NCBI GenBank assembly: GCA_964016885.1
Contig: OZ024755.1
Span: forward strand, 17,732,001-17,796,000
Length of the DNA stretch: 64,000 nucleotides
Direction of reading: 5' to 3'
DNA from: Eledone cirrhosa
Lineage: Eukaryota
Positions 9,701-60,530 of this stretch are shown here, one piece after another. The notes beneath the pieces are model-generated. The model was not told where the DNA came from. It made no database searches and saw nothing but the letters and a program-made list of their open reading frames with translations. Made by a program: the position numbers and the translations under genes. Within the stretch, counting starts at the first letter, position 1, and every line of letters starts with the position of its first letter.

Positions 9701-12700
9701 TTACTGTGAGAATATATTATATATAGGCACATGGAGGCACATAGCTTAGTGGTTAGAGCATTGGCCTTGCAATCGAAAGGTTGTGAGTTCAATTCTCAGA
9801 CCGGGTGATGTGTTGGTTTCCTTGAGCAAGACACTTTATTTCACATTGCTCCAGTTTACTCAGCTGTAGAAATGAGATGATAGGGACTGGGGTCCCTATC
9901 ATTCCACTGCAAAGTATTCGTGGAGGTGCCACGGTAAAAAAAAAGCACCCAGCCCACACTGCAAAGTGGTCGTGGAGGTGCCACGGCAAAAAAAGCACCC
10001 AGCACTCACTGTAAATGAGGTTGGTGTTAGGAAGGGCATCCAGCTGTAGAAATCAAGCCAGAATCAGTTCCCGTCCCACCCATGCAAGCAGGGAAAAGTG
10101 GACATAAAATGATGATGATGATAGAGTAATATAAATGCTAAAGGGTTAATGTTATTTTCTCTTAAACAATTTCTTTATGTTTCAGGTTGTGACTTCATTG
10201 CTCATATTTTTGGTTGTTATAAACATATACAGATCAGTGCAGGTAAGTTTTTTATCTATGTTAATACCATAATGAAGGGATTAATTAAGAACAGGTGTTT
10301 CTTAGAGGTTACTGACCCACAATACAAATTATTTAACCCTTTTGACAACAACCCACACTTATGGCAGCCTTTGGTTCTAAACTGTCTGTTTTAATGTTTG
10401 TAAAGTGATTACCATCATCATCATTGTCATCGCCATTTCATGTCCATTTACCATACTTGCATGGGTTAGATAGGTTGTCAAATTATGGGACTAGCCAGAC
10501 AGTGTCTTGCTCACCATCTTTTTTGTTTTTCCTCATAGTTTTCTACAGCTAGACACCCTTCCTAATGCCAACCACATAGTATGTACTGGGAGCCTTATTT
10601 TCATGCCACTATCACTATCACCTTACAATGTGGACTGGGTGATTTCTTTTTTTATTTTGTGGCTCTAGTACAACCACCATACAAAGTTGACTGGGTGTTT
10701 TTTGGTCATGGCACCAGCACTACCACCGTACAGTACAGACTGGGTACTTCTTTGGGTCATAACACCAGTACAACTATCCTACAGTGTAGACTGGATGTTT
10801 TTTGTTTTTGTTTTTTTGTGGCACCAAAACAACCACCCTTGGGTTGACTAGGTGCTTTTTTTTGTCCAGTACCATTACAACCACCTTACAAAGTGGACTG
10901 GATGCCATTTGTCATGACGCCAGCATGACCACCTTACAGGGTGGACTGGATGCCATTTGTTGTGGTACCAGTACAACCACCTTACAAAGTAGATTGGATG
11001 CCAATTGACATGGCGCCAGGATGACCACCTTACAGTGTGGACTCAGTCCATCCTTTCTTTGCAGTTCATGATGATGATGATGATAATGTATTTTCTGAGA
11101 AAAGATTGTCAGAGAAAGAATGAAATATATTTAATATCTAGATGGAGTTTTTCTTATTTGTTAGTTTTTCAAACATTTGTTGTTCTACAACCTGATGGGA
11201 ATGGCTCAGTAACAGAGAATATAAAGCAATCGCCCTGACCTCATTTTACTTCCTTTCAACATTACTATAACATTATAATGAAGAAAGAAGATAAAAAATG
11301 AATAATGAATAAATAAATAAACTGGGATAGGCTCAGACATGACTGTTGTAAAGAAGTTCGCTTCACAGTAACATGGTTTCAGGTTCAATCACACTGTACT
11401 GTACCCTGGGTCTTCTACAATAATTTTGAGTTGATATATGCCTTCTGGAGGAGTTTGTTAGGCAGAAACTGAGTGGAAGCCCATCCTATATATATATATA
11501 TATCTCAAGGAAACAACAACACATCACCCGGTCGTCAATTCTCAGACCGGGTGATGTGTTGTTTCCTTGAGCAAGACACTTTATTTCACATTGCTCCAGT
11601 TTACTCAGCTGTAGAAATGAGATGATAGGGACTGGGGTGCTTATCATTCCACTGCAAAGTGGTCGTGGAGGTGCCATGGCAAAAAAGCACCCAGCCCACA
11701 CTGTAAAGTGGACGTGTAGGCGCCATGGCAAAAAAACACCCAGCACTCACTGTAAATGAGGCTGGTGTTAGGAAGGGCATCCAGCTGTAGAAATCAAGCC
11801 AGAATTATTTCCTGTATGAGCAAGAGAAGGTCAGCTGACTGGACACTGCCCACAACAGGACAACCCGTCTAACCCCTGCTAGCGTGGGAGAACGGACATA
11901 AAACGGTGATGTTGATGTTGATGATGATGATGATATATATATGTGAAGGCGTGTGGCTGATTGGTAAGAGAATTGGATTCACAATCGTGAGGTTGTGATT
12001 TTGATTCCCGGACCGGGTGATGTGTTATGTCCTTGAGCAAGACACTTTATTTCACATTGCTCCTTCTACCTGGAGTTGCGACCGATAGATAGTATTAGCA
12101 ATTGGAAAGACCCATGGAAACATTGTTTCCTCGGTCCGATTTGATGAAAGTCGGTTGACTGACGATATATATATATATATATATGTCTGTCTGTCTGACT
12201 CCATGTTTGTTTATGTCCCATAACATAGCCGTTTAACAAAACAAGATCAATAAAGAAAGTACCAAACTTGAAAAAATAAGTACTGCTAGTTCAAGACGAT
12301 CAACCTAATCTCTACTATGGCACAAAATATGTCATTGTCTAAATATGTCATTGTCTAAATATGTCACAAAATATGCATTGTCCCATTACTTCTGAGGGAG
12401 TTGTAGGGGCGCCATATTGATATGCAACATGAATAGAGCAGATTTCTTCCAGAGAAGGATAGAGAGTGTGAGAAAGAGATATAGAGGAAGAATTTACCCC
12501 AGTACTAGACGGGTACTTTTTTATTGACCTTGAATGCATGAAAGGCAAAGTTGACCTCTGTGAGATTGGAACTCGGAAAGTAGAGAGCCAAAACAGATAC
12601 TGCAAACCATTCTATCTGACATTGTAATGGCTCTGCCAATTCATCGCTTATAAGGAATATATACATATATATCATCATCATCATCGTTTAACGTCCATCT

Positions 12701-24696: not shown

Positions 24697-27600
24697 CATT
24701 TTAATTCTGTGTAAGAGTTACAGCTAGCTAGGTCAATAGGGTGGTAGACATAATTTTAATTCTGTGTAAGAGTTACAGCTAGCTAGGTCAAGAGAGTGGT
24801 AGACATAATGTTAATTCCGTGAGAGTTACAGCTAGCTAGGTCAATAGGGTGGTAAACATAATTTTAATTCTGTGTAAGAGTTACAGCTAGCTAGGTCAAG
24901 AGAGTGGTAGACATAATGTTAATTCCGTGAGAGTTACAGCTAGCTAGGTCAATAGGGTGGTAGACATAATTTTAATTCTGTGAGAGTTACAGCTAGCTAG
25001 GTCAAGAGAGTGGTAGACATAATGTTAATTCCATGAGAGTTACAGCTAGCTAGGTCAAGAGAGTGGTGTGGTAGACATAATGTTAATTCTGTGTAAGAGT
25101 TACAGCTAGCTAGGTCAAGAGAGTGGTAGACATAATTTTAATTCTGTGTAAGAGTTACAGCTAGCTAGGTCAATAGGGTGGTAGACATAATTTTAATTCT
25201 GTGTAAGAGTTACAGCTAGCTAGGTCAAGAGAGTGGTAGACATAATTTTAATTCTGTGTAAGAGTTACAGCTAGCTAGGTCAAGAGAGTGGTAGACATAA
25301 TTTTAATTCTGTGTAAGAGTTACAGCTAGCTAGGTCAAGAGAGTGGTAGACATAATGTTAATTCCGTGAGAGTTACAGCTAGCTAGGTCAATAGGGTGGT
25401 AGACATAATTTTAATTCTGTGTAAGAGTTACAGCTAGCTAGGTCAATAGGGTGGTAGACATAATTTTAATTCTGTGTAAGAGTTACAGCTAGCTAGGTCA
25501 ATAGGGTGGTAGACATAATTTTAATTCTGTGTAAGAGTTACAGCTAGCTAGGTCAATAGGGTGGTAGACATAATTTTAATTCTGTGTAAGAGTTACAGCT
25601 AGCTAGGTCAATAGGGTGGTAGACATAATTTTAATTCTGTGTAAGAGTTACAGCTAGCTAGGTCAATAGGGTGGTAGACATAATTTTAATTCTGTGTAAG
25701 AGTTACAGCTAGCTAGGTCAATAGGGTGGTAGACATAATTTTAATTCTGTGTAAGAGTTACAGCTAGCTAGGTCAAGAGAGTGGTAGACATAATTTTAAT
25801 TCTGTGTAAGAGTTACAGCTAGCTAGGTCAAGAGAGTGGTAGACATAATTTTAATTCTGTGTAAGAGTTACAGCTAGCTAGGTCAATAGGGTGGTAGACA
25901 TAATTTTAATTCTGTGTAAGAGTTACAGCTAGCTAGGTCAATAGGGTGGTAGACATAATTTTAATTCTGTGTAAGAATTACAGCTAGCTAGGTCAATAGG
26001 GTGGTAGACATAATTTTAATTCTGTGTAAGAGTTACAGCTAGCTAGGTCAATAGGGTGGTAGACATAATTTTAATTCTGTGTAAGAGTTACAGCTAGCTA
26101 GGTCAATAGGGTGGTAGACATAATTTTAATTCTGTGTAAGAGTTACAGCTAGCTAGGTCAATAGGGTGGTAGACATAATTTTAATTCTGTGTAAGAGTTA
26201 CAGCTAGCTAGGTCAAGAGAGTGGTAGACATAATTTTAATTCTGTGTAAGAGTTACAGCTAGCTAGGTCAATAGGGTGGTAGACATAATTTTAATTCTGT
26301 GTAAGAGTTACAGCTAGCTAGGTCAAGAGAGTGGTAGACATAATTTTAATTCTGTGTAAGAGTTACAGCTAGCTAGGTCAATAGGGTGGTAGACATAATT
26401 TTAATTCTGTGTAAGAGTTACAGCTAGCTAGGTCAAGAGAGTGGTAGACATAATTTTAATTCTGTGTAAGAGTTACAGCTAGCTAGGTCAATAGGGTGGT
26501 AGACATAATTTTAATTCTGTGTAAGAGTTACAGCTAGCTAGGTCAAGAGAGTGGTAGACATAATTTTAATTCTGTGTAAGAGTTACAGCTAGCTAGGTCA
26601 AGAGAGTGGTAGACATAATTTGAATTCTGTGTATGAGTTACAGCTAGCTAGGTCAATAGGGTGGTAGACATAATTTTAATTCTGTGAGAGTTACAGCTAG
26701 CTAGGTCAATAGGGTGGTAGACATAATGTTAATTCTGTGTAAGAGTTACAGCTAGCTAGGTCAAGAGAGTGGTAGACATAATTTTAATTCTGTGTAAGAG
26801 TTACAGCTAGCTAGGTCAAGAGAGTGGTAGACATAATTTTAATTCTGTGTAAGAGTTACAGCTAGCTAGGTCAATAGGGTGGTAGACATAATTTTAATTC
26901 TGTGTAAGAGTTACAGCTAGCTAGGTCAAGAGAGTGGTAGACATAATTTTAATTCTGTGTAAGAGTTAACAGCTAGCTAGGTCAAGAGAGTGGTAGACAT
27001 AATTTTAATTCTGTGTAAGAGTTACAGCTAGCTAGGTCAAGAGAGTGGTAGACATAATTTTAATTCTGTGTAAGAGTTACAGCTAGCTAGGTCAAGAGAG
27101 TGGTAGACATAATTTTAATTCTGTGTAAGAGTTACAGCTAGCTAGGTCAATAGGGTGGTAGACATAATTTTAATTCTGCGTAAGAGTTACAGCTAGCTAG
27201 GTCAAGAGAGTGGTAGACATAATTTTAATTCTGTGAGAGTTACAGCTAGCTAGGTCAAGAGACTGGTAGACATAATTTTAATTCTGTGAGAGTTACAGCT
27301 AGCTAGGTCAAGAGAGTGGTAGACATAATTTTAATTCTGTGAGAGTTACAGCTAGCTAGGTCAAGAGACTGGTAGACATAATTTTAATTCTGTGAGAGTT
27401 ACAGCTAGCTAGGTCAAGAGAGTGGTAGACATAATTTTAATTATGTGTAAGAGTTACAGCTAGCTAGGTCAAGAGAGTGGTAGACATAATTTTAATTCTG
27501 TGAGAGTTACAGCTAGCTAGGTCAAGAGACTGCTAGACATAATTTTAATTCTGTGAGAGTTACAGCTAGCTAGGTCAAGAGAGTGGTAGACATAATGTTA

Positions 27601-28010
27601 ATTCCGTGAGAGTTACAGCTAGCTAGGTCAAGAGAGTGGTGTGGTAGACATAATGTTAATTCTGTGTAAGAGTTACAGCTAGCTAGGTCAAGAGAGTGGT
27701 AGACATAATGTTAATTATGTGTAAGAGTTACAGCTAGCTATGTCAAGAGAGTGGTAGACATAATGTTAATTCCGTGAGAGTTACAGCTAGCTAGGTCAAG
27801 AGAGTGGTAGACATAATTTTAATTCTGTGTAAGAGTTACAGCTAGCTAGGTCAAGAGAGTGGTAGACATAATTTTAATTCTGTGTAAGAGTTACAGCTAG
27901 CTAGGTCAAGAGAGTGGTAGACATAATGTTAATTACGTGAGAGTTACAGCTAGCTAGGTCAAGAGAGTGGTGTGGTAGATATAATTTTAATTCTGTGTAA
28001 GAGTTACAGA
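24697..28010. repeat. 55-bp satellite, ~60 copies
   Basis: TAATTTTAATTCTGTGTAAGAGTTACAGCTAGCTAGGTCAA(TAGG/GAGA)GTGGTAGACA. Confidence 0.97.
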
Positions 28011-30264
28011 TAGCTGCTGTTGTACCTCTCTCAGTTCTAACGTGTGTTCCAGTTGTTTGGACAATAGCACAGCCTGCTTGCGAAATTAACATGCAAGTGG
28101 CTGAGCATTCCACAGACATTTATACTTTCAACATAGTACTCAGAGAGATCCAGCATAAGCCTTTCAATTACAGGTACACATTTGCCAGAGCTGAGTAGAT
28201 TGGAACAACATAAAATAAAGCACCTTGCTCAAGGATACATGCTGCCAGGAATCAAACCCATTTCATTAAGATCATTAACAAAGCAACATAACTACAAAGC
28301 CACGCTCCTTCACATGAAGTCGGTATTTCCTGATGTCTCAAACAAACAGGTGAGAAAATTTTGCAAAGCAGAACAAGACTGCTTTTAGGTCACTGGTTTG
28401 GGTGCTCATCTCAAAATTCAAGGAGTGCTGAGAGGTTTTCAATTTGTAGTGGTGGTAGAGAGGCTCAGATATTTATAGATCCCTTTCTTTGGCTTTTAAC
28501 CCTTTAGCATTTACATTACTCTATGTATGGTCTAACCCATGCTAGCGTAGAAAATGGACGTTAAATGAAGATGATGATGATGGTATTTTCACGGTAAACA
28601 CTTTATTTCACATAATTATCTCACATAATATCGAATCTATCAGATTATTTATTATTTATTTTGAGAATACCTTAACATAAGTATGAGCAGCTGATTATGT
28701 TTGAATTCTTCTTTAACTGTTTTCAGTTAATAGACAGTGGCCATGTTGGGACCTTTAGAAGGGAGCTCGAATTATTATTTTTTTTTTAATATAGGAGAGT
28801 GTAGTTGTTGTAACATAAGAAAGAATTTGCTTCGACATTCTAAATGTTATCTTTTATGCTAATTGATAAATTTGTCAACATGTATATATATCTTATTTAA
28901 TCCATAACCCTTAGGCAAGACAACAAGCACAACTTCAATCTAACACTCTCTGTTCCCCATGAATGTTTGTAGGGTATCCTTGTCAATACAGTGAGAGAAG
29001 GTTTAGTATGATCAATCATATTTACTGCTGAATATATTTAATCTCTGCAGTAAATGTTAACTATACAGGAGAGGTTTGTTTTTTTTGTTCATTTGTTGTT
29101 CATTTGGCGTCGCTTTTTTTTTTTCCCCCAATGTTTGGATAGATAGAATAGTTATGTTTATTGGAGAATTATTTCTATAGCTGTGTGTGTGTTCATTGCC
29201 AAATTGAAATAATAATTTCTGGATTAAATTTTGTGTTTCAATTTAGGTTGTTCAGTATTTAAATCCCTCTTGCCAAAAGAGAGGCAATATAAGAGTTAAA
29301 AAAATCCGTAATTTTATAAATTACTTATTATGCATGACTGAAGTTTTAAAGCACATGAATAATTGATGATTTAAAAAAATAAAGAATTGTCAAAGTATGT
29401 TGATATATGCTGCTAGTATTAGAAAGAATATTTTTAATGTAGAATGTCTGTTGAAGCTTGGAATGCTGTTTGATCTGTCAATATGTGGACCTGAATTTAA
29501 AAAAAAAAAAAAAAAAAAAAGGTTTTATACATTGATAAATTAAATGCGGTATGGGCTGTATTTTTTTTTTTTTTTTGCTGTTAAATAACCATATTTGGTA
29601 ACATATAAAACCTGCACCATCACCATTTCAGTACAGGATATTATGAAACCATGTGAAGGTGCATAGTTTAGTGGTTAGAGTGTCGGGCATACAATCGTGA
29701 TGTAATGACTTCAGTTCCAGGACTGGTCTGCGTGTTGTGTCCTTGAGCAAGACACTTTATTTCATGTTGCTCCAGTTCACCCAGCTGTAGAAATGAGTTG
29801 CGACATCACTGATGCCAAGCTGTATCAGCCATTCCCTTTCCCTTGGACAAAATCGGTGGTGTGGAGAGGGGAGGCTGGTATGCATGGGTGACTGGTGGTC
29901 TTGCTCAGACTTGTGCTTCAGAGGCTAACTTTCTAGGTGCAAGTCCCATGGTCATTTATGACCAAAGGGAGTCTTTACCTTTTATTATGAAACAAAGTTT
30001 TTTGTATAATTATAGATATGTTTCTTTTATTTGCCACCAGGGCATCAAAAGTGGGAGTTTACAAAACAAGGCGTCCTCAATAAGGAGGAGGCAATAACAA
30101 TATATAAAAATAAAATATAACAAAAAATAAAATTTATAACAAAGATTATAATTATAGATAAGTATTTAATATTATTAAAATGTGTAACTCCACTTCATAG
30201 ATTAGACCTTGATAATATTCTTTTAGCCTTCTTTAGATGTTAAAAAAATAGGTCTTATTCGCTC

Positions 30265-30305: not shown

Positions 30306-33300
30306 CTTAGGTATAATTTTAAAAATAAACTAAAGAGATAATTTAAGGAAGGAAGAATTGGCCCAGTACATGACTGGTACTCCTTTTTATTGACATCGAA
30401 TGGATGAAAAGCAAAGTTGATCTCAGCAAGATTTAAACTCAGAGATCAAAGAGCTGGAACAAATGCCACAAATCATTCTATCCGACGTTCTAACAACTCT
30501 GCCAAATTGTCACCCTGGATAGAGTGTACCTATTCTAAAATACAAATTGTCAATTAAACTAAAATAGTACAAAAAACGGGGAAATATGAGACTTACCATT
30601 ATTTGTAGTTGTTATTATAGAGAACCAGTAAATATTATTTGAACTTGTAAGTTTGCTGACTTCCACTATTAAAATATTACTTCGGGTGGAGAAATAGGAA
30701 CCTGGAGAGGAGTGACAGTCGAACTCTTTCTATAGATACAAAATAAATCATCATCATCATCAACACCACAACCACCACCACCGTCCCCATCATCATCACC
30801 ATCATAATCATTCAATTATCATCACTCCATCATAATCATTCAATTATCATCACTCCATCATCATCATCATTTTTCCACATTTGCATGGGTTGGTCAGGTC
30901 CTTTGCAGCGCAGAATCTTTCCACACATCGCAATCCTTCATCATCTTCTCTGAGTTTCAACAATTTGAGATCAGCTCTCACCATCTCTACCCAGGTCTTC
31001 CTGTAGTATGTCTTCCTTTCTCTGGGAATTCTTGGTACTTCTTCACCTAACAATCATCATCCATGTGCATCACATATCCATACCAACAGTCTTCGTTCTT
31101 GTATGCTACATGTGATTCCTCTTATACAGTGGAACCTCTGTTCATGAACTTAATTCATTCCTAAAGGCTGTTCATCACCCAAATATTCATAAACTGAAAC
31201 TATTTTCCTCCATACAAAATGTTGAGAGAGAAACACAGTGAGAGAAAAAGAGATTGTGTATGAAAGACAGATAGATATTACCACAGTAACTAACTATACA
31301 GCAAGTTATGCTTTCTTGCCAATATTTCTAGCTTGTTGCTAACCATTGTTGCTGGCTTGCATGTTTGTCACTCAAGACGTTTTATGTTTGGAAAATTCAT
31401 TCATGAACTGTAGGTAACACGGTAAAAAGGTCCCAGTCCACACTGTAAATGTGGTTGCTGTTAGGAAGGGCATCCAACCATAGAAAACCTGTTGTGTAAG
31501 TAACACAGCAAAAAGGTCCCAGTCCACACTGTAAATGTGGTTGGTGTTAGGAAGGGCATCAAGCCTTAGAAAACCTGTCATGTAGATAACACAGTAAAAA
31601 AGGTCCCAGTCCACACTGTGAATGCGGTTGGTGTTAGGAAGTGCATCCAGCCGTAGAAAACCTGCCAGATAGTCCTATATGAGCGAGATGCGGTCACCCA
31701 ATTAATCTTGCCACAAGTGGGACAATTCCTGTCTAACCCATGCTAGCGTTGAAGATGGGCGTTAAACAATGATGATGATGATGAATTGATTTGTTTATGA
31801 TGAGTAACATTCATGAACCGAGGTTGCACTGTACTCAATTTTTCTGTCAGATCATCCAAACTCTGTTGTTTTCTTGCATTAATAATGGTAAAAAGAATTT
31901 TTTTTAAAACTTATTTTTAATGTATTTGAAATAGAAAAGACAATGACTCATACTTACAACAATATTGTGTGAGGAAATCTTATTATTATAGAATATTAAT
32001 GATACACCGCATTCTTTGATGTCAATATCTGCAATATATACTTTGAAATATCTTTCTTGTTCAGCTTCCAGTACAATTTTACATTGGTATCTATCTCCTA
32101 TGTCATGCCGTGGCTGAGCTTTGATTCTTACCAAATCATTATCACTGATTTTAAAAGGTTCCACTTGGACACAATCATAACTTTCCATATCGACTGAAAA
32201 ACAAAGTCAATTCAGCAACATTGATAAGCAAATTAGTACAAAGGTAACATTGTGAAGAAACGAAAAATTTACAAAAGAATGTATAATTGTGATTGCATCA
32301 TATAAATACAGAATGGGGCATAAAGATTTCCCACATTTTGAAGGGATATAAAAAAAAAAAAGAATATAACTGTCTAGAAAAAATTAGTACCAATCTTCGC
32401 TTTTAGTTTGTATTGTTCAACACACACACATGAGTGTGTGGCTAGATGTCCCTTCATTGTCTAGCAAGTTCTCCAAGCATCTTGTCTGATGATCCTTTGA
32501 GTACACAGATGTAACTCCAGAGGAACATGACTCATCACTTAGCCATAATAAAGTGTATATATATATATATATATGTTTCCACTTTTGGCACAAGGCCAGC
32601 AATTACCCCAGTACGTTACTGGTACTTTATTTTATTAACCCCATAAGGATGAAAGACAAAGTTAACCTCAACGGGATTTGAACTCAGTCAAGAGCCGTAA
32701 CTGTGCTGCAAAGCATGGTGTTCGACCCTCTACCGATACTGCCATGGTGTCCGACCCTCTACCGATACTGCCATGGTGTCCGACCCTCTACCGATACTGC
32801 CATGGTGTCCGACCCTCTACCGATACTGCCATGGTGTCCGACCCTCTACCGATACTGCCATGGTGTTCGACCCTCTACCGATACTGCCATGGTGTCCGAC
32901 CCTCTACCGATACTGCCAATCCACACAAGGACAATTTGTTAAGCCTTCATTACGTTTATTGATTGGTGACGTGCATTTCGTTATTGATCAGCTCAAGGTT
33001 CGATCTATATTAATCTGGCCCAACTCTGGAATCAAAAGCTCGTCAGACCTCTGCTGTTGCAATAACAGATATTACGGTCTGAGTTCAAATTCCGCCGCGG
33101 TTAACTTTTCCTTTCATCCTATAAAATAAAATAAAGCACCAGTAACGTAGTGGGGTCGATTTAATCGACTTTCCTATCCCCCAAATTACTGACCTTGTGC
33201 CTATACTAGAAATCATTATTACATTTGTGGGTATGGTGGCCGGAAGCTGGGGAGTGCTCGACCGGAAGGGCCAGCAGGTGGGCCTCTCTCTAGCGGTGAT

Positions 33301-36499: not shown

Positions 36500-36740
36500 A
36501 CCAGAGTACTCGATACTGAGGGTAGTAGAGTAATAGGTAATATGAAAAGATTCAGGACCCCGACGACTGAGCTCCGGCCGTTTCGACAGCTAGATCCTAC
36601 AGCTGTCGAAACGGCCGGAGCTCAGTCGTCGGGGTCCTGAATCTTTTCATATATATATTTATATATATATTATAAAGAGTCAGGACCCGACTCTTTATAA
36701 TACAGCCATACTCTACTACCCCAAGTATCGAAGTACTGTG
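36500..36740. repeat. Nested inverted repeats with a perfect 52-bp-arm hairpin (probably Penelope-like inverted terminal repeat)
   Basis: 36540-36591 pairs with 36601-36652, 9-nt loop; outer arms 36506-36532 / 36709-36736. Confidence 0.8.
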
Positions 36741-37191
36741 TTAAGTAATGGTCTAACTAGTTTTTAACTGGTTCTATCCTGATTTATATAAATGTATATA
36801 TATAATGGTTTCTTATATTGGCACAAGGCCAGCAATTTTGGGGGAGAGGAAAGTCGATTAACTCGACCCCAGTGCATGACTGGTACTTTATTTTATCGAC
36901 CCCGTAAGGATGAAAAGCAAAGTTGATCTCAGCGAGATTTGAACTCAGAGATCAAAGAGCTGGAACAAATGCCACAAAGCATTCTATCCGACTTTCTAAC
37001 AACTCTGGGCACTACAACGCTATTAGCTGTCAGTCGTGAAAGCAGCCGATGAAAGCAGGCGAAGGTGACGTCATTCGTCATCGTTTATTTCCGTATTACT
37101 ACCACGCGTAAGTGGAGTTTTCACGCGTTTTTTATTTTTTTTTATTAAAGCATATCGATGTAAGTGGAGTTACTTAAATGAAAATATAGGT

Positions 37192-37207
37192 GGCCCTTAA
37201 AAGGGCC
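37192..37207 (-). other. Histone mRNA 3' stem-loop motif (left arm of foldback element)
   Basis: Minus strand reads GGCCCTTTTAAGGGCCACC. Confidence 0.7.
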
Positions 37208-37594
37208 ATATTAGAAAATAAATTTATGTTAATTAGAAAACAAGTCATGGTTATCAAATAAATTGGATTTAATCATTTATATTTTCATAGTCATAGTTAT
37301 TAATGTAGAAAACAAGTCATTTTCATCAACAGTGGAATTACTTCTGACAGCTAATACCATGAACTTAAATGAATTTTCACCAACAGTGGAGTGACTTCTG
37401 ACAGCTAATACCATGAACTATATTTTCAAAGTCATGGTTATCAATGTAGAAAACAAGTCATTTTCACCACTGTTGGTGAAAATGACTTGTTTTCTACATT
37501 AATAACCATGACTATGAAAATATAAATGATTAAATCCAATTTATTTGATAACCATGACTTGTTTTCTAATTAACTTAAATTTGTTTTCTAATTT

Positions 37595-37610
37595 GGCCCT
37601 TTTAAGGGCC
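37595..37610 (+). other. Histone mRNA 3' stem-loop motif (right arm of foldback element)
   Basis: GGCCCT-TTTA-AGGGCC followed by AC; matches the metazoan 6-bp stem/4-nt loop consensus. Confidence 0.7.
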
Positions 37611-37904
37611 ACTTATATTTTCATTTAAGTAACTCCACTTACATCTATATGCTTTAACAAAAAATAATAAAAAAATTTCATTTAAGTAACTCCACTTACG
37701 CGTGGTAGTAATACGGAAATAAACGATGTTTTGCTTTCGTCGGCTGCTTTCGACTGACAGCTAATAGCGTTGTAGTGCCCAACTCTGCCAATTTCTCACA
37801 CTGGATAGAGTGTACCTATTCTAAAATACAGATAGTCAATTAAACTAAAATAGTACAAAAAAGGGGGAATATGAGACTTGTAGCTGTTATTATAGAGAAC
37901 CAGA

Positions 37905-59749: not shown

Positions 59750-60530
59750 AAGTAGCATGGCTTAGTGGTTAGAGCATTGGGCTTGCAATCGAAAGGTTGT
59801 GAGTTCAATTCTCAGACCGGCTGATGTGTTGTTTCCTTGAGCAAGACATTTTATTTTACATTTACTCCAGTTTACTCATCATCATCATCATCATTTTACG
59901 TCCACTTTTCCCTGCTGCAAGGGTGGGACGAGAACTGATTCTGGCTTTATTTCTACAGCTGGATGCCCTTCCTAATACCAACCTCATTTACAGTGAGTGC
60001 TGGGGGGGTTTTGCCGTGGCACCTACTTTGCAGTGGAATGATAGTGACCCCAGTCCCTATCATCTCATTTCTACAGCTGAGTAAACTGGAGCAATGTGAA
60101 ATAAAGTGTCTTGCTCAAGGAAACAACACATCACCCGGTCTGAGAATTGAACTCACAACCTTTCAATTGCAAGGCCAATGCTCTAACCACTAAGCCATGT
60201 GCCTCACTCAGCTGTAGAAATGAGATGATGGCACTGGGGTCCTTATCATTCCACTGCAAAGTGATCATGTAGGCGCCTCGGAAAAAAAACACCCAGCCCA
60301 CACTGTAAAGTGGACGTGTAGGCGCCACGGAAAAAAAGCACCCAGCACTCACTGAAAATGAGGTTGGTGTTAGGAAGGGCATCCAGCTGTAAAAATCAAG
60401 CCAGAATCAGTTCCCGTATGAGCAAGACAAGGTCAGCCAACCAGACACTGCCCACAACAGGACAACCCGTCTAACCCATGCTAGCGTGGAAGAATGGACA
60501 TAAAACAGTGATGATGATGATGATGATTAC
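59750..60530. mobile_element. Nested SINE cluster (minus-strand copy inside a plus-strand copy)
   Basis: Plus copy broken at ...TTTACTCA and resumes at ACTCAGCTGTAG around an inverted copy. Confidence 0.75.

What the first reader, a model, noticed from the sequence alone, without database searches (positions are those of the whole stretch)
37007..37780. Foldback transposon with a histone-mRNA 3' stem-loop in each arm, pointing outward
Seen: a 774-bp almost fully palindromic element with GGGCACTAC termini and a 6-bp TSD (AACTCT), confirmed by an empty paralogous site at 30495-30500. Each arm holds GGCCCT-TTTA-AGGGCC-AC(C) (37192-37207 minus, 37595-37610 plus), about 170-185 bp inside the ends and oriented toward them. 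A TGACGTCA (CRE/ATF site) and repeated AAGTGGAGTT boxes lie nearby. Established: this 16-mer fits the stem-loop bound by SLBP that replaces poly(A) on replication-dependent histone mRNAs, and 6-bp TSDs are uncommon (Polinton/Maverick, IS3EU, hAT6-type). No histone ORF is present. Inference: the autonomous parent may end its mRNAs with histone stem-loops, coupling expression to S phase or oocyte storage. Caveats: the 5' flank is not the usual A-rich CCAAA, and no purine-rich U7-binding element is visible downstream.
Basis: partly seen in the sequence, partly recalled or inferred. Interest (0 to 1): 0.85.

Follow-up and report, generated by a model that had tools for sequence, protein, structure and literature searches.

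The report
Merlin transposons borrow histone mRNA ends
This small mirror-armed jumping gene carries in both arms a copied piece of the 3' end of its host's histone H4 gene, and unrelated members of the same transposon group in other organisms carry a similar signal just after their transposase gene, so these elements likely borrow the histone-message pathway, possibly to time their own jumping.

Summary
The element is real but misclassified. It spans 37008-37779, with GGCAC ends and an 8-bp TSD (CAACTCTG), not 6 bp: a non-autonomous Merlin (IS1595-like) foldback. The hairpin is not a look-alike. It starts a 63-nt piece copied from the 3' end of one host histone H4 gene (61/63 and 59/63 identical), including that host's downstream element; a sister family still carries the H4 stop codon. 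In coding parents the hairpin lies in sense after the transposase stop (14 of 15 copies). Five of 76 Merlin loci from other organisms carry their own histone-type hairpin 18-84 nt after the stop with canonical flanks (0.02 expected), on at least four separate branches. Against function in this particular family: the A-rich 5' flank needed by SLBP is lost, the hairpin is usually 138 nt from the stop, and an AATAAA precedes it in 13 of 14. No RNA data were available. Copies are about 60-fold enriched beside histone genes, which likely explains repeated capture. The family also makes 23-28 kb elements.

The parts
37000..37007 (+). Left target-site duplication CAACTCTG (8 bp)
37008..37779 (.). Non-autonomous Merlin foldback element, 772 bp, no ORF
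   Evidence: shares ends and inner blocks with PF12762-coding copies
37008..37036 (+). Left terminal repeat GGCACTACAACGCTATTAGCTG..., perfectly complementary to the right end
   Evidence: I5; 526 exact copies of the 22-nt terminus pattern in the genome
37066..37073 (.). TGACGTCA (CRE/ATF-like, label recalled); left arm only; also in coding copies
   Evidence: function not tested
37110..37119 (+). Outer AAGTGGAGTT box, a duplicate of a word from the H4 downstream flank
37146..37207 (-). Captured histone H4 3' cassette, left arm: stem-loop 37192-37207, downstream element and flank; 61 of 63 identical to the host H4 gene at G000:C7:67.458 Mb
37336..37466 (.). Non-palindromic centre with short direct repeats, including internal copies of the CTGACAGCTAATA word of the terminus
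37529..37534 (+). ATTAAA 66 nt upstream of the right stem-loop (AATAAA at the same place in coding copies)
37595..37656 (+). Captured histone H4 3' cassette, right arm: stem-loop 37595-37610; 59 of 63 identical to the donor H4 gene; 5' flank replaced by AATTT
37688..37697 (-). Outer AAGTGGAGTT box, right arm
37751..37779 (-). Right terminal repeat
37780..37787 (+). Right target-site duplication CAACTCTG
30494..30501 (+). Empty site with a single CAACTCTG in a paralogous copy of the high-copy repeat into which the element inserted

Best explanation
The element is a gene-less Merlin transposon whose arms carry a piece copied from the 3' end of a host histone H4 gene, and Merlin lineages likely keep such pieces because they would let the transposase message end like a histone message. 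Steps: (1) shown: Merlin ends, 8-bp TSD, IS1595-type parent; (2) shown: the stem-loop and 46-47 nt behind it come from one H4 gene, and longer captures reach into the H4 coding end; (3) shown: copies are strongly enriched beside histone genes; inferred: this preference brought ends next to H4 and allowed capture, by composite transposition or gap repair followed by deletions and foldback duplication into both arms; (4) shown: the cassette lies in sense behind the intronless transposase ORF here and in five foreign Merlins; inferred: SLBP and U7 snRNP would cut the transcript about 5 nt after the stem, giving a non-polyadenylated mRNA present mainly in S phase or stored in oocytes, when cut-and-paste movement raises copy number (recalled principle); (5) inferred: in this family the cassette is weakened, so poly(A) use at the upstream AATAAA likely competes or dominates, and in the gene-less copy in this window the cassette is a passenger.
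For: Merlin identity; criteria from PMC8101967. H4 origin: BLAST match starts at the first G of the stem, 46 or 63 nt, 95-98%; L133/L084 holds the H4 coding end, stop, UTR and about 470 nt of flank; the 63-nt piece ends where similarity among host H4 paralogues ends. Sense position behind the stop in 14 of 15 coding copies; hairpin pairs with probability 0.85-1.0 in context; host has an SLBP gene. Foreign Merlins: 5 of 76 loci, 18-84 nt after the stop, A at -3 in all five, no AATAAA/ATTAAA before the hairpin, 0 antisense, 0.023 expected, 0 in 200 shuffles; Rfam Histone3 E 3e-8 to 1e-4; no histone ORF in the 80 loci; different stem and loop variants, all pairs kept; 5 changes on the tree, at least 4 forced by well-supported branches. 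L329 also has an outward-pointing copy in its left end. Histone proximity: 5 exact termini in 449.5 kb vs 0.079 expected; 0 hits in 220 kb round tubulin and HSP70 matches.
Against: In this family the 5' flank is AATTT, while 45 of 46 host histone stem-loops have A at -3 and 42 of 46 at -2; the four residues before the stem are described as essential for SLBP binding (PMC1635294). The distance from the stop is 94-661 nt (138 in 8 of 14) against 19-40 nt in host genes and 25-60 nt described as critical for stability control. AATAAA lies 44-66 nt upstream of the stem-loop in 13 of 14 coding copies. The 63-nt version has a 1-nt deletion in the downstream element. Across 77 copies the stem-loop decays at 2.0%, no slower than the 5 nt behind it (1.3%), by scattered changes. 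The sister family with the intact flank showed no transposase of this family in 40 loci. 71 of 76 foreign loci and 35 of 35 loci of other host Merlin families lack the hairpin, so it is dispensable for Merlins. Only L329 passes Rfam's cut-off among the foreign five.
Confidence: 0.6

Rival explanations
1. Neutral passenger everywhere. Merlins insert near histone genes and often copy flanking host DNA into their arms; the hairpin is a template-switch hot spot, so pieces begin there. The transposase mRNA uses an ordinary poly(A) signal.
For: Lost flank, long spacing and upstream AATAAA; half-hairpin junctions in many copies; the family also carries about 24 kb of shared cargo in which only LINE/Penelope domains were found; a stem-loop-less Merlin family is also found near histone genes (3 remnants in 450 kb vs 0 in 220 kb); neutral decay in copies.
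Against: Does not explain why five foreign elements on separate branches have the hairpin in sense, at histone-like spacing, with canonical flanks and no upstream poly(A) signal and no other histone coding sequence.
Confidence: 0.27
2. The cassette acts mainly as an address: transcripts across it recruit SLBP/U7/FLASH, draw the element to the histone locus body, and bias integration to histone clusters.
For: About 60- to 85-fold enrichment beside histone genes; about 7 of 10 insertions lie within 2 kb 3' of a histone gene, one 18 nt after an H2A stop; outward-pointing copies in both arms, where the left one cannot end the transposase mRNA.
Against: A family without the hairpin shows the same tendency (n=3); only about 1% of exact termini (5 of 526) are near histone genes; none of the 80 foreign loci has a histone ORF within the fetched flanks; symmetry follows from foldback duplication alone.
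Confidence: 0.08
3. The palindrome is used as DNA (transposase or host-factor binding site, or cruciform) and its histone origin is incidental.
For: Present 2-4 times per element, on both sides of the ORF.
Against: Absent from most Merlins; in foreign elements the single-stranded RNA determinants (A-rich 5' flank, AC 3' flank, loop U) are kept while the stem sequence varies.
Confidence: 0.05

Closest known systems
Merlin superfamily of DNA transposons (IS1016/IS1595-related; Feschotte 2004, as summarised in PMC8101967)
   Same: 5'-GG ends, 8-bp TSD, long inverted repeats with internal repeats, single DDE_Tnp_IS1595 transposase with intact D-D-E in the parent.
   Different: Arms contain a captured histone H4 3' cassette; strong enrichment beside histone genes; 23-28 kb composite forms. 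'Histone' has 0 occurrences in PMC8101967.
Replication-dependent histone mRNA 3' end (Rfam RF00032, SLBP, U7 snRNP)
   Same: Same 16-nt stem-loop, ACC 3' flank and the host's H4 downstream element; intronless ORF upstream in the parent.
   Different: Upstream ORF is a transposase; in this family the 5' flank is lost, spacing is long and an AATAAA precedes it.
Pack-MULE / Pack-TIR host-DNA capture (recalled)
   Same: Host gene fragment carried inside the ends of a DNA transposon.
   Different: The captured piece is a non-coding RNA-processing signal, sits in both arms and behind the transposase ORF, and recurs in unrelated lineages.
Sea urchin TU foldback elements (recalled, not found in the library)
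   Same: Recalled as foldback elements with an 8-bp TSD, first found inside a histone H2B orphon.
   Different: Not compared by sequence; no stem-loop capture recalled.
Polinton/Maverick, IS3EU, hAT6
   Same: Nothing beyond terminal inverted repeats.
   Different: TSD is 8 bp, not 6; the parent protein is IS1595-type.

Membership tests
Merlin superfamily | Terminal 5'-GG-3' | tested here: met
   GGCAC...GTGCC; the base outside varies
Merlin superfamily | 8- or 9-bp TSD | tested here: met
   8/8 in 6 and 7/8 in 3 of 25 terminus pairs listed (many others pair an end with an internal end of a giant element); 8/8 in 6 of 6 fully fetched giants, 7/8 in a seventh
Merlin superfamily | TIRs of 24-462 bp | tested here: met
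   arms about 310-330 bp
Merlin superfamily | DDE_Tnp_IS1595 transposase with D-D-E in the autonomous parent | tested here: met
   PF12762 70.4 and 68.8 bits vs cut-off 27; IDES, SDLW, NHIE in 4 of 5 uninterrupted ORFs checked; same termini
Merlin superfamily | Transposition activity | not testable with these tools
   many distinct TSDs show past movement only
6-bp TSD families (Polinton, IS3EU, hAT6) | 6-bp TSD | tested here: not met
Histone mRNA 3' end | 6-bp stem, 4-nt loop, G-C at stem pair 2, U at loop position 3 | tested here: met
   loop TTTA occurs in 8 of 46 host histone genes
Histone mRNA 3' end | A-rich 5' flank for SLBP | tested here: not met
   AATTT in this family vs A at -3 in 45 of 46 host genes; met in the sister family and in 5 of 5 foreign elements
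Histone mRNA 3' end | Downstream element like that of host histone genes | tested here: met
   same as H4 apart from one deleted T in the 63-nt version
Histone mRNA 3' end | Stem-loop 25-60 nt after a stop codon | tested here: not met
   94-661 nt in parents, no ORF in the window copy; foreign elements 18, 21, 33, 56, 84 nt
Histone mRNA 3' end | No poly(A) signal ahead of the stem-loop | tested here: not met
   AATAAA 44-66 nt upstream in 13 of 14; met in the 5 foreign elements
Histone mRNA 3' end | Host machinery present | tested here: inconclusive
   SLBP RNA-binding domain found over cut-off; U7 not found over cut-off by Rfam
Histone mRNA 3' end | Non-polyadenylated RNA end about 5 nt after the stem; SLBP binding | not testable with these tools
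   needs RNA data or binding assays

The most novel reading that the evidence does not exclude
Merlin transposons have repeatedly (four or more times) taken over their hosts' histone 3'-processing signal, so that transposase is made from a non-polyadenylated, SLBP/U7-processed mRNA confined to S phase or stored in eggs. They also prefer to land beside histone genes, which feeds the capture. These would be non-histone, transposon-coded clients of a pathway thought to serve histones alone.
Probability: 0.45. Interest if true: 0.9.

Novelty: new variant of a known kind. Interest (0 to 1): 0.78.

Why it matters
The SLBP/U7 pathway is regarded as histone-specific. A transposase that uses it would show that the pathway accepts foreign messages, and would give a concrete, testable way for a cut-and-paste element to match its activity to DNA replication or the egg. 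Here the donor gene, intermediate captures and trimmed derivatives all lie in one genome. A histone-locus insertion preference and 23-28 kb Merlin elements were not found in the searches run. Hundreds of stray stem-loop cassettes could also cut short host transcripts, and they crowd Rfam Histone3 annotation of this genome.

Tried and rejected
RNA evidence: no RNA holder listed; this says nothing about expression. Laying contigs of four runs of unknown kind on the insertion site showed no listed joint across the element and gave no usable polymorphism test (only the best-supported rows were shown). U7 snRNA: best Rfam hit 29.7 bits, under the cut-off and unconvincing on reading. Viral contigs: 12 distant IS1595-like loci, none with a canonical stem-loop. 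Rfam at gathering on 17 foreign loci, including L303, L304 and L274: no hit. Cargo of two giant elements: 108 of 129 open frames scanned, only LINE, PHD, GIY-YIG and transposase domains apart from two weak under-cut-off hits; Rfam on 12 stretches of four giants found only the Histone3 hairpins. Chance resemblance of the hairpin was rejected by the 63-nt match to H4. Transfer from Merlin into the H4 gene was rejected because the donor locus shows only the shared piece and no Merlin end or inner block, and other H4 paralogues share the sequence. The careful tree did not finish; the quick tree is reported. Orthologous elements of other Octopus species exist as proteins, but their DNA could not be fetched. 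Cluster look-up named no organism for the foreign elements.

Full report
Observation. Rfam Histone3 passes its cut-off on the left arm (35.6 vs 34 bits). The ends need correcting. At this site a 6-bp TSD with GGGCAC ends and an 8-bp TSD with GGCAC ends fit equally. In 30 genomic copies the base outside GGCAC is G 26, T 18, C 11, A 2 times; 6 of 25 terminus pairs have perfect 8-bp duplications and 3 have 7 of 8. The element is therefore 37008-37779 with TSD CAACTCTG.

Family. GG ends with an 8-9-bp TSD define Merlin (PMC8101967, passages read). PF12762 matches lie inside copies with the same ends. The parent has a single intronless ORF of about 300 aa with PF12762 at 70 bits and the D-D-E motifs in 4 of 5 uninterrupted ORFs checked. 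The closest named proteins are from Octopus bimaculoides (79%) and O. sinensis (72%), so the host is likely an octopus (inference). The genome holds 526 exact matches to the 22-nt terminus pattern and 548 to a 28-nt stem-loop word.

Origin of the hairpin. The host's real histone genes were collected (46 distinct stem-loops; 14 C-terminal motif matches had none within 80 nt). The arms match the H4 gene at G000:C7:67.458 Mb from the first G of the stem for 63 nt: 61 of 63 in the left arm, 59 of 63 in the right. Copies hold a 63-nt or a 46-nt version. A sister foldback family keeps the H4 5' flank (67 exact matches including the H4 gene itself; many share flanks and so spread inside a larger repeat). 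One copy (L133) keeps the last H4 codons, the stop, the UTR and about 470 nt of flank. The donor locus shows no Merlin end, and other H4 paralogues share the sequence up to about the point where the 63-nt piece stops. The direction is host to transposon. The AAGTGGAGTT boxes come from the same flank. Host downstream elements are of an AAGT/pyrimidine type, so the lack of a purine-rich box is no defect.

Position in coding copies. Of 15 coding loci chosen by their C-terminus, 14 have the stem-loop in sense after the stop: +138 in 8, otherwise +94, +116, +144, +288, +301, +661; one is truncated. A second, outward-pointing copy lies upstream of the ORF in most. Three features argue against efficient use. 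The 5' flank is AATTT where 45 of 46 host genes have A at -3, and those residues are described as essential for SLBP binding (PMC1635294, passages). Host spacing is 19-40 nt, and 25-60 nt is called critical for stability control (bioRxiv 10.64898/2026.10.14.759114, passages and section 9; its supplements are closed and might bear on variants). An AATAAA lies 44-66 nt upstream in 13 of 14. In 77 copies found by anchors outside the stem, the hairpin differs at 25 of 1232 sites, its next five bases at 5 of 383: ordinary decay, as expected of inserted copies. Loci of other host Merlin families lack the hairpin (0 of 35). The host has an SLBP gene.

Other organisms. A scan of metagenome contigs with a 35-protein alignment kept the best 80 of 521 Merlin-like loci. 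The stop was reached in 76, of which 66 have 100 nt or more behind it. Five have a histone-type hairpin in sense within 150 nt: L324 +18, L329 +21, L303 +33 (two in tandem), L304 +56, L274 +84. All have A at -3 and AC behind the stem, and none has AATAAA or ATTAAA before it. Controls: 0 antisense; 1 hit in 456,894 other strand-bases, which is the inverted copy in L329's left end; 0.023 expected; 0 in 200 shuffles. That relaxed pattern was written after the hits were seen. The independent check is Rfam: 28.7-38.1 bits, E 3e-8 to 1e-4, only L329 over the cut-off. No histone ORF lies in the 80 loci. L303 sits inside 52-bp inverted repeats and its right end reads GGCACTAC. Stem and loop differ among lineages with all 66 cells paired and two pairs changed on both sides, though rows were chosen for having a hairpin. 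The C-first loop of L274 and L324 is recalled as nematode-like; no call shows it. On a quick tree of 80 proteins (57 of the 80 loci, those submitted with open frames of 170 aa or more; 7 host; 16 database proteins of unknown state, counted as lacking the label) the trait needs 5 changes, at least 4 forced by well-supported branches; 9 of 500 shuffles were as low. Several gains, or one old gain with losses and replacement, both fit. The octopus case is a recent capture either way.

Histone neighbourhoods. In 449,502 bases round histone genes (about 5 kb counted twice) there are 5 exact termini against 0.079 expected and 7 exact 28-mers against 0.082. By BLAST these are about 10 insertions at 6 sites on two chromosomes, about 7 within 2 kb 3' of a histone gene, one 18 nt after an H2A stop. 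Two of the windows were fetched after I had seen copies there. The later set gave 1 insertion in 100 kb of new loci and 1 in 99 kb of outer flanks, and tubulin (104 kb) and HSP70 (115 kb) loci gave 0. Against specificity: those controls reach only 1.5 kb from the match, and one listed 28-mer lies 2.2 kb from a tubulin match. A hairpin-less Merlin family also has 3 remnants in the histone set and 0 in controls, which suggests the preference came first. The window copy is not near a histone gene.

Giant forms. Many termini occur as inverted pairs 23-45 kb apart. Six spans fetched whole are 23.6-28.4 kb, share cargo and have perfect 8-bp TSDs. The cargo domains found are LINE and Penelope remnants. 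Composite transposition of this kind offers a route for the H4 capture (inference).

Reading. Shown: Merlin membership, H4 origin, sense position behind the ORF, recurrence in other lineages, enrichment near histone genes. Inferred: SLBP/U7 processing of transposase mRNA and S-phase or oocyte timing. I put this at about 0.75 for the foreign elements, about 0.35 for this family, and 0.6 for the overall account. The gain in copy number from moving during replication is recalled, not read.

Novelty. Ten literature searches listed no paper whose title or abstract start describes a histone stem-loop in a transposon or histone-locus targeting by a DNA transposon. Apart from the three papers cited, only listings were seen, and the library lacks most subscription papers. 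Earlier unchecked notes of this scan mention a Polinton gene and a repeat with histone-type ends in other genomes, and another Merlin foldback with host cargo in this genome; they are leads only. Verdict: new variant of a known kind, interest 0.78.

Noticed in passing
G000:C2:36344524-36369827, C1:392475292-392498874, C1:155773155-155798795, C1:72240579-72267247, C2:101129692-101155195, C1:304002453-304030870: Giant 23.6-28.4 kb Merlin elements with 8-bp TSDs and a shared cargo in which only decayed LINE/Penelope domains and simple repeats were found; several of the uninterrupted transposase ORFs appear to belong to this form.
   Followed up: partly
L223:5455-6005 (G000:C7:7.88 Mb): A family member inserted 18 nt after an H2A stop codon, pushing that gene's own stem-loop away while supplying a near-intact one in sense.
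   Followed up: partly
L070, L071, L077, L079: Merlin elements of two families that are whole-element foldbacks with two inverted transposase ORFs.
   Followed up: no
L074:1979-3184 (G000:C9:53.56 Mb): Long open frame of a divergent Merlin-like protein with a degenerate first catalytic motif, possibly domesticated; a terminus of this family lies just downstream.
   Followed up: no
G000:C18:4.9-12.7 Mb, C28, C370, C1636: Sister foldback (about 620 bp, stem-loops about 90 bp apart, intact H4 flank) amplified with identical flanks inside a larger repeat; it dominates the top Rfam Histone3 hits of the genome.
   Followed up: partly
L311:1045-1116: Sister of L324 on the tree; a cut-off half of a similar hairpin follows the stop and runs into an A-rich tail at the contig end.
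   Followed up: no
L099:270 (G000:C2:142.161 Mb): One copy beside an H3 gene has the host H4 loop TTTC instead of the family's TTTA (ancestral state, back-mutation or conversion).
   Followed up: no
window 36540-36652, 9742-9799, 59758-59815, 24698-28015: Another 52-bp perfect inverted repeat 350 bp upstream; two tRNA-like repeat heads; a 55-bp tandem array of about 60 copies.
   Followed up: no
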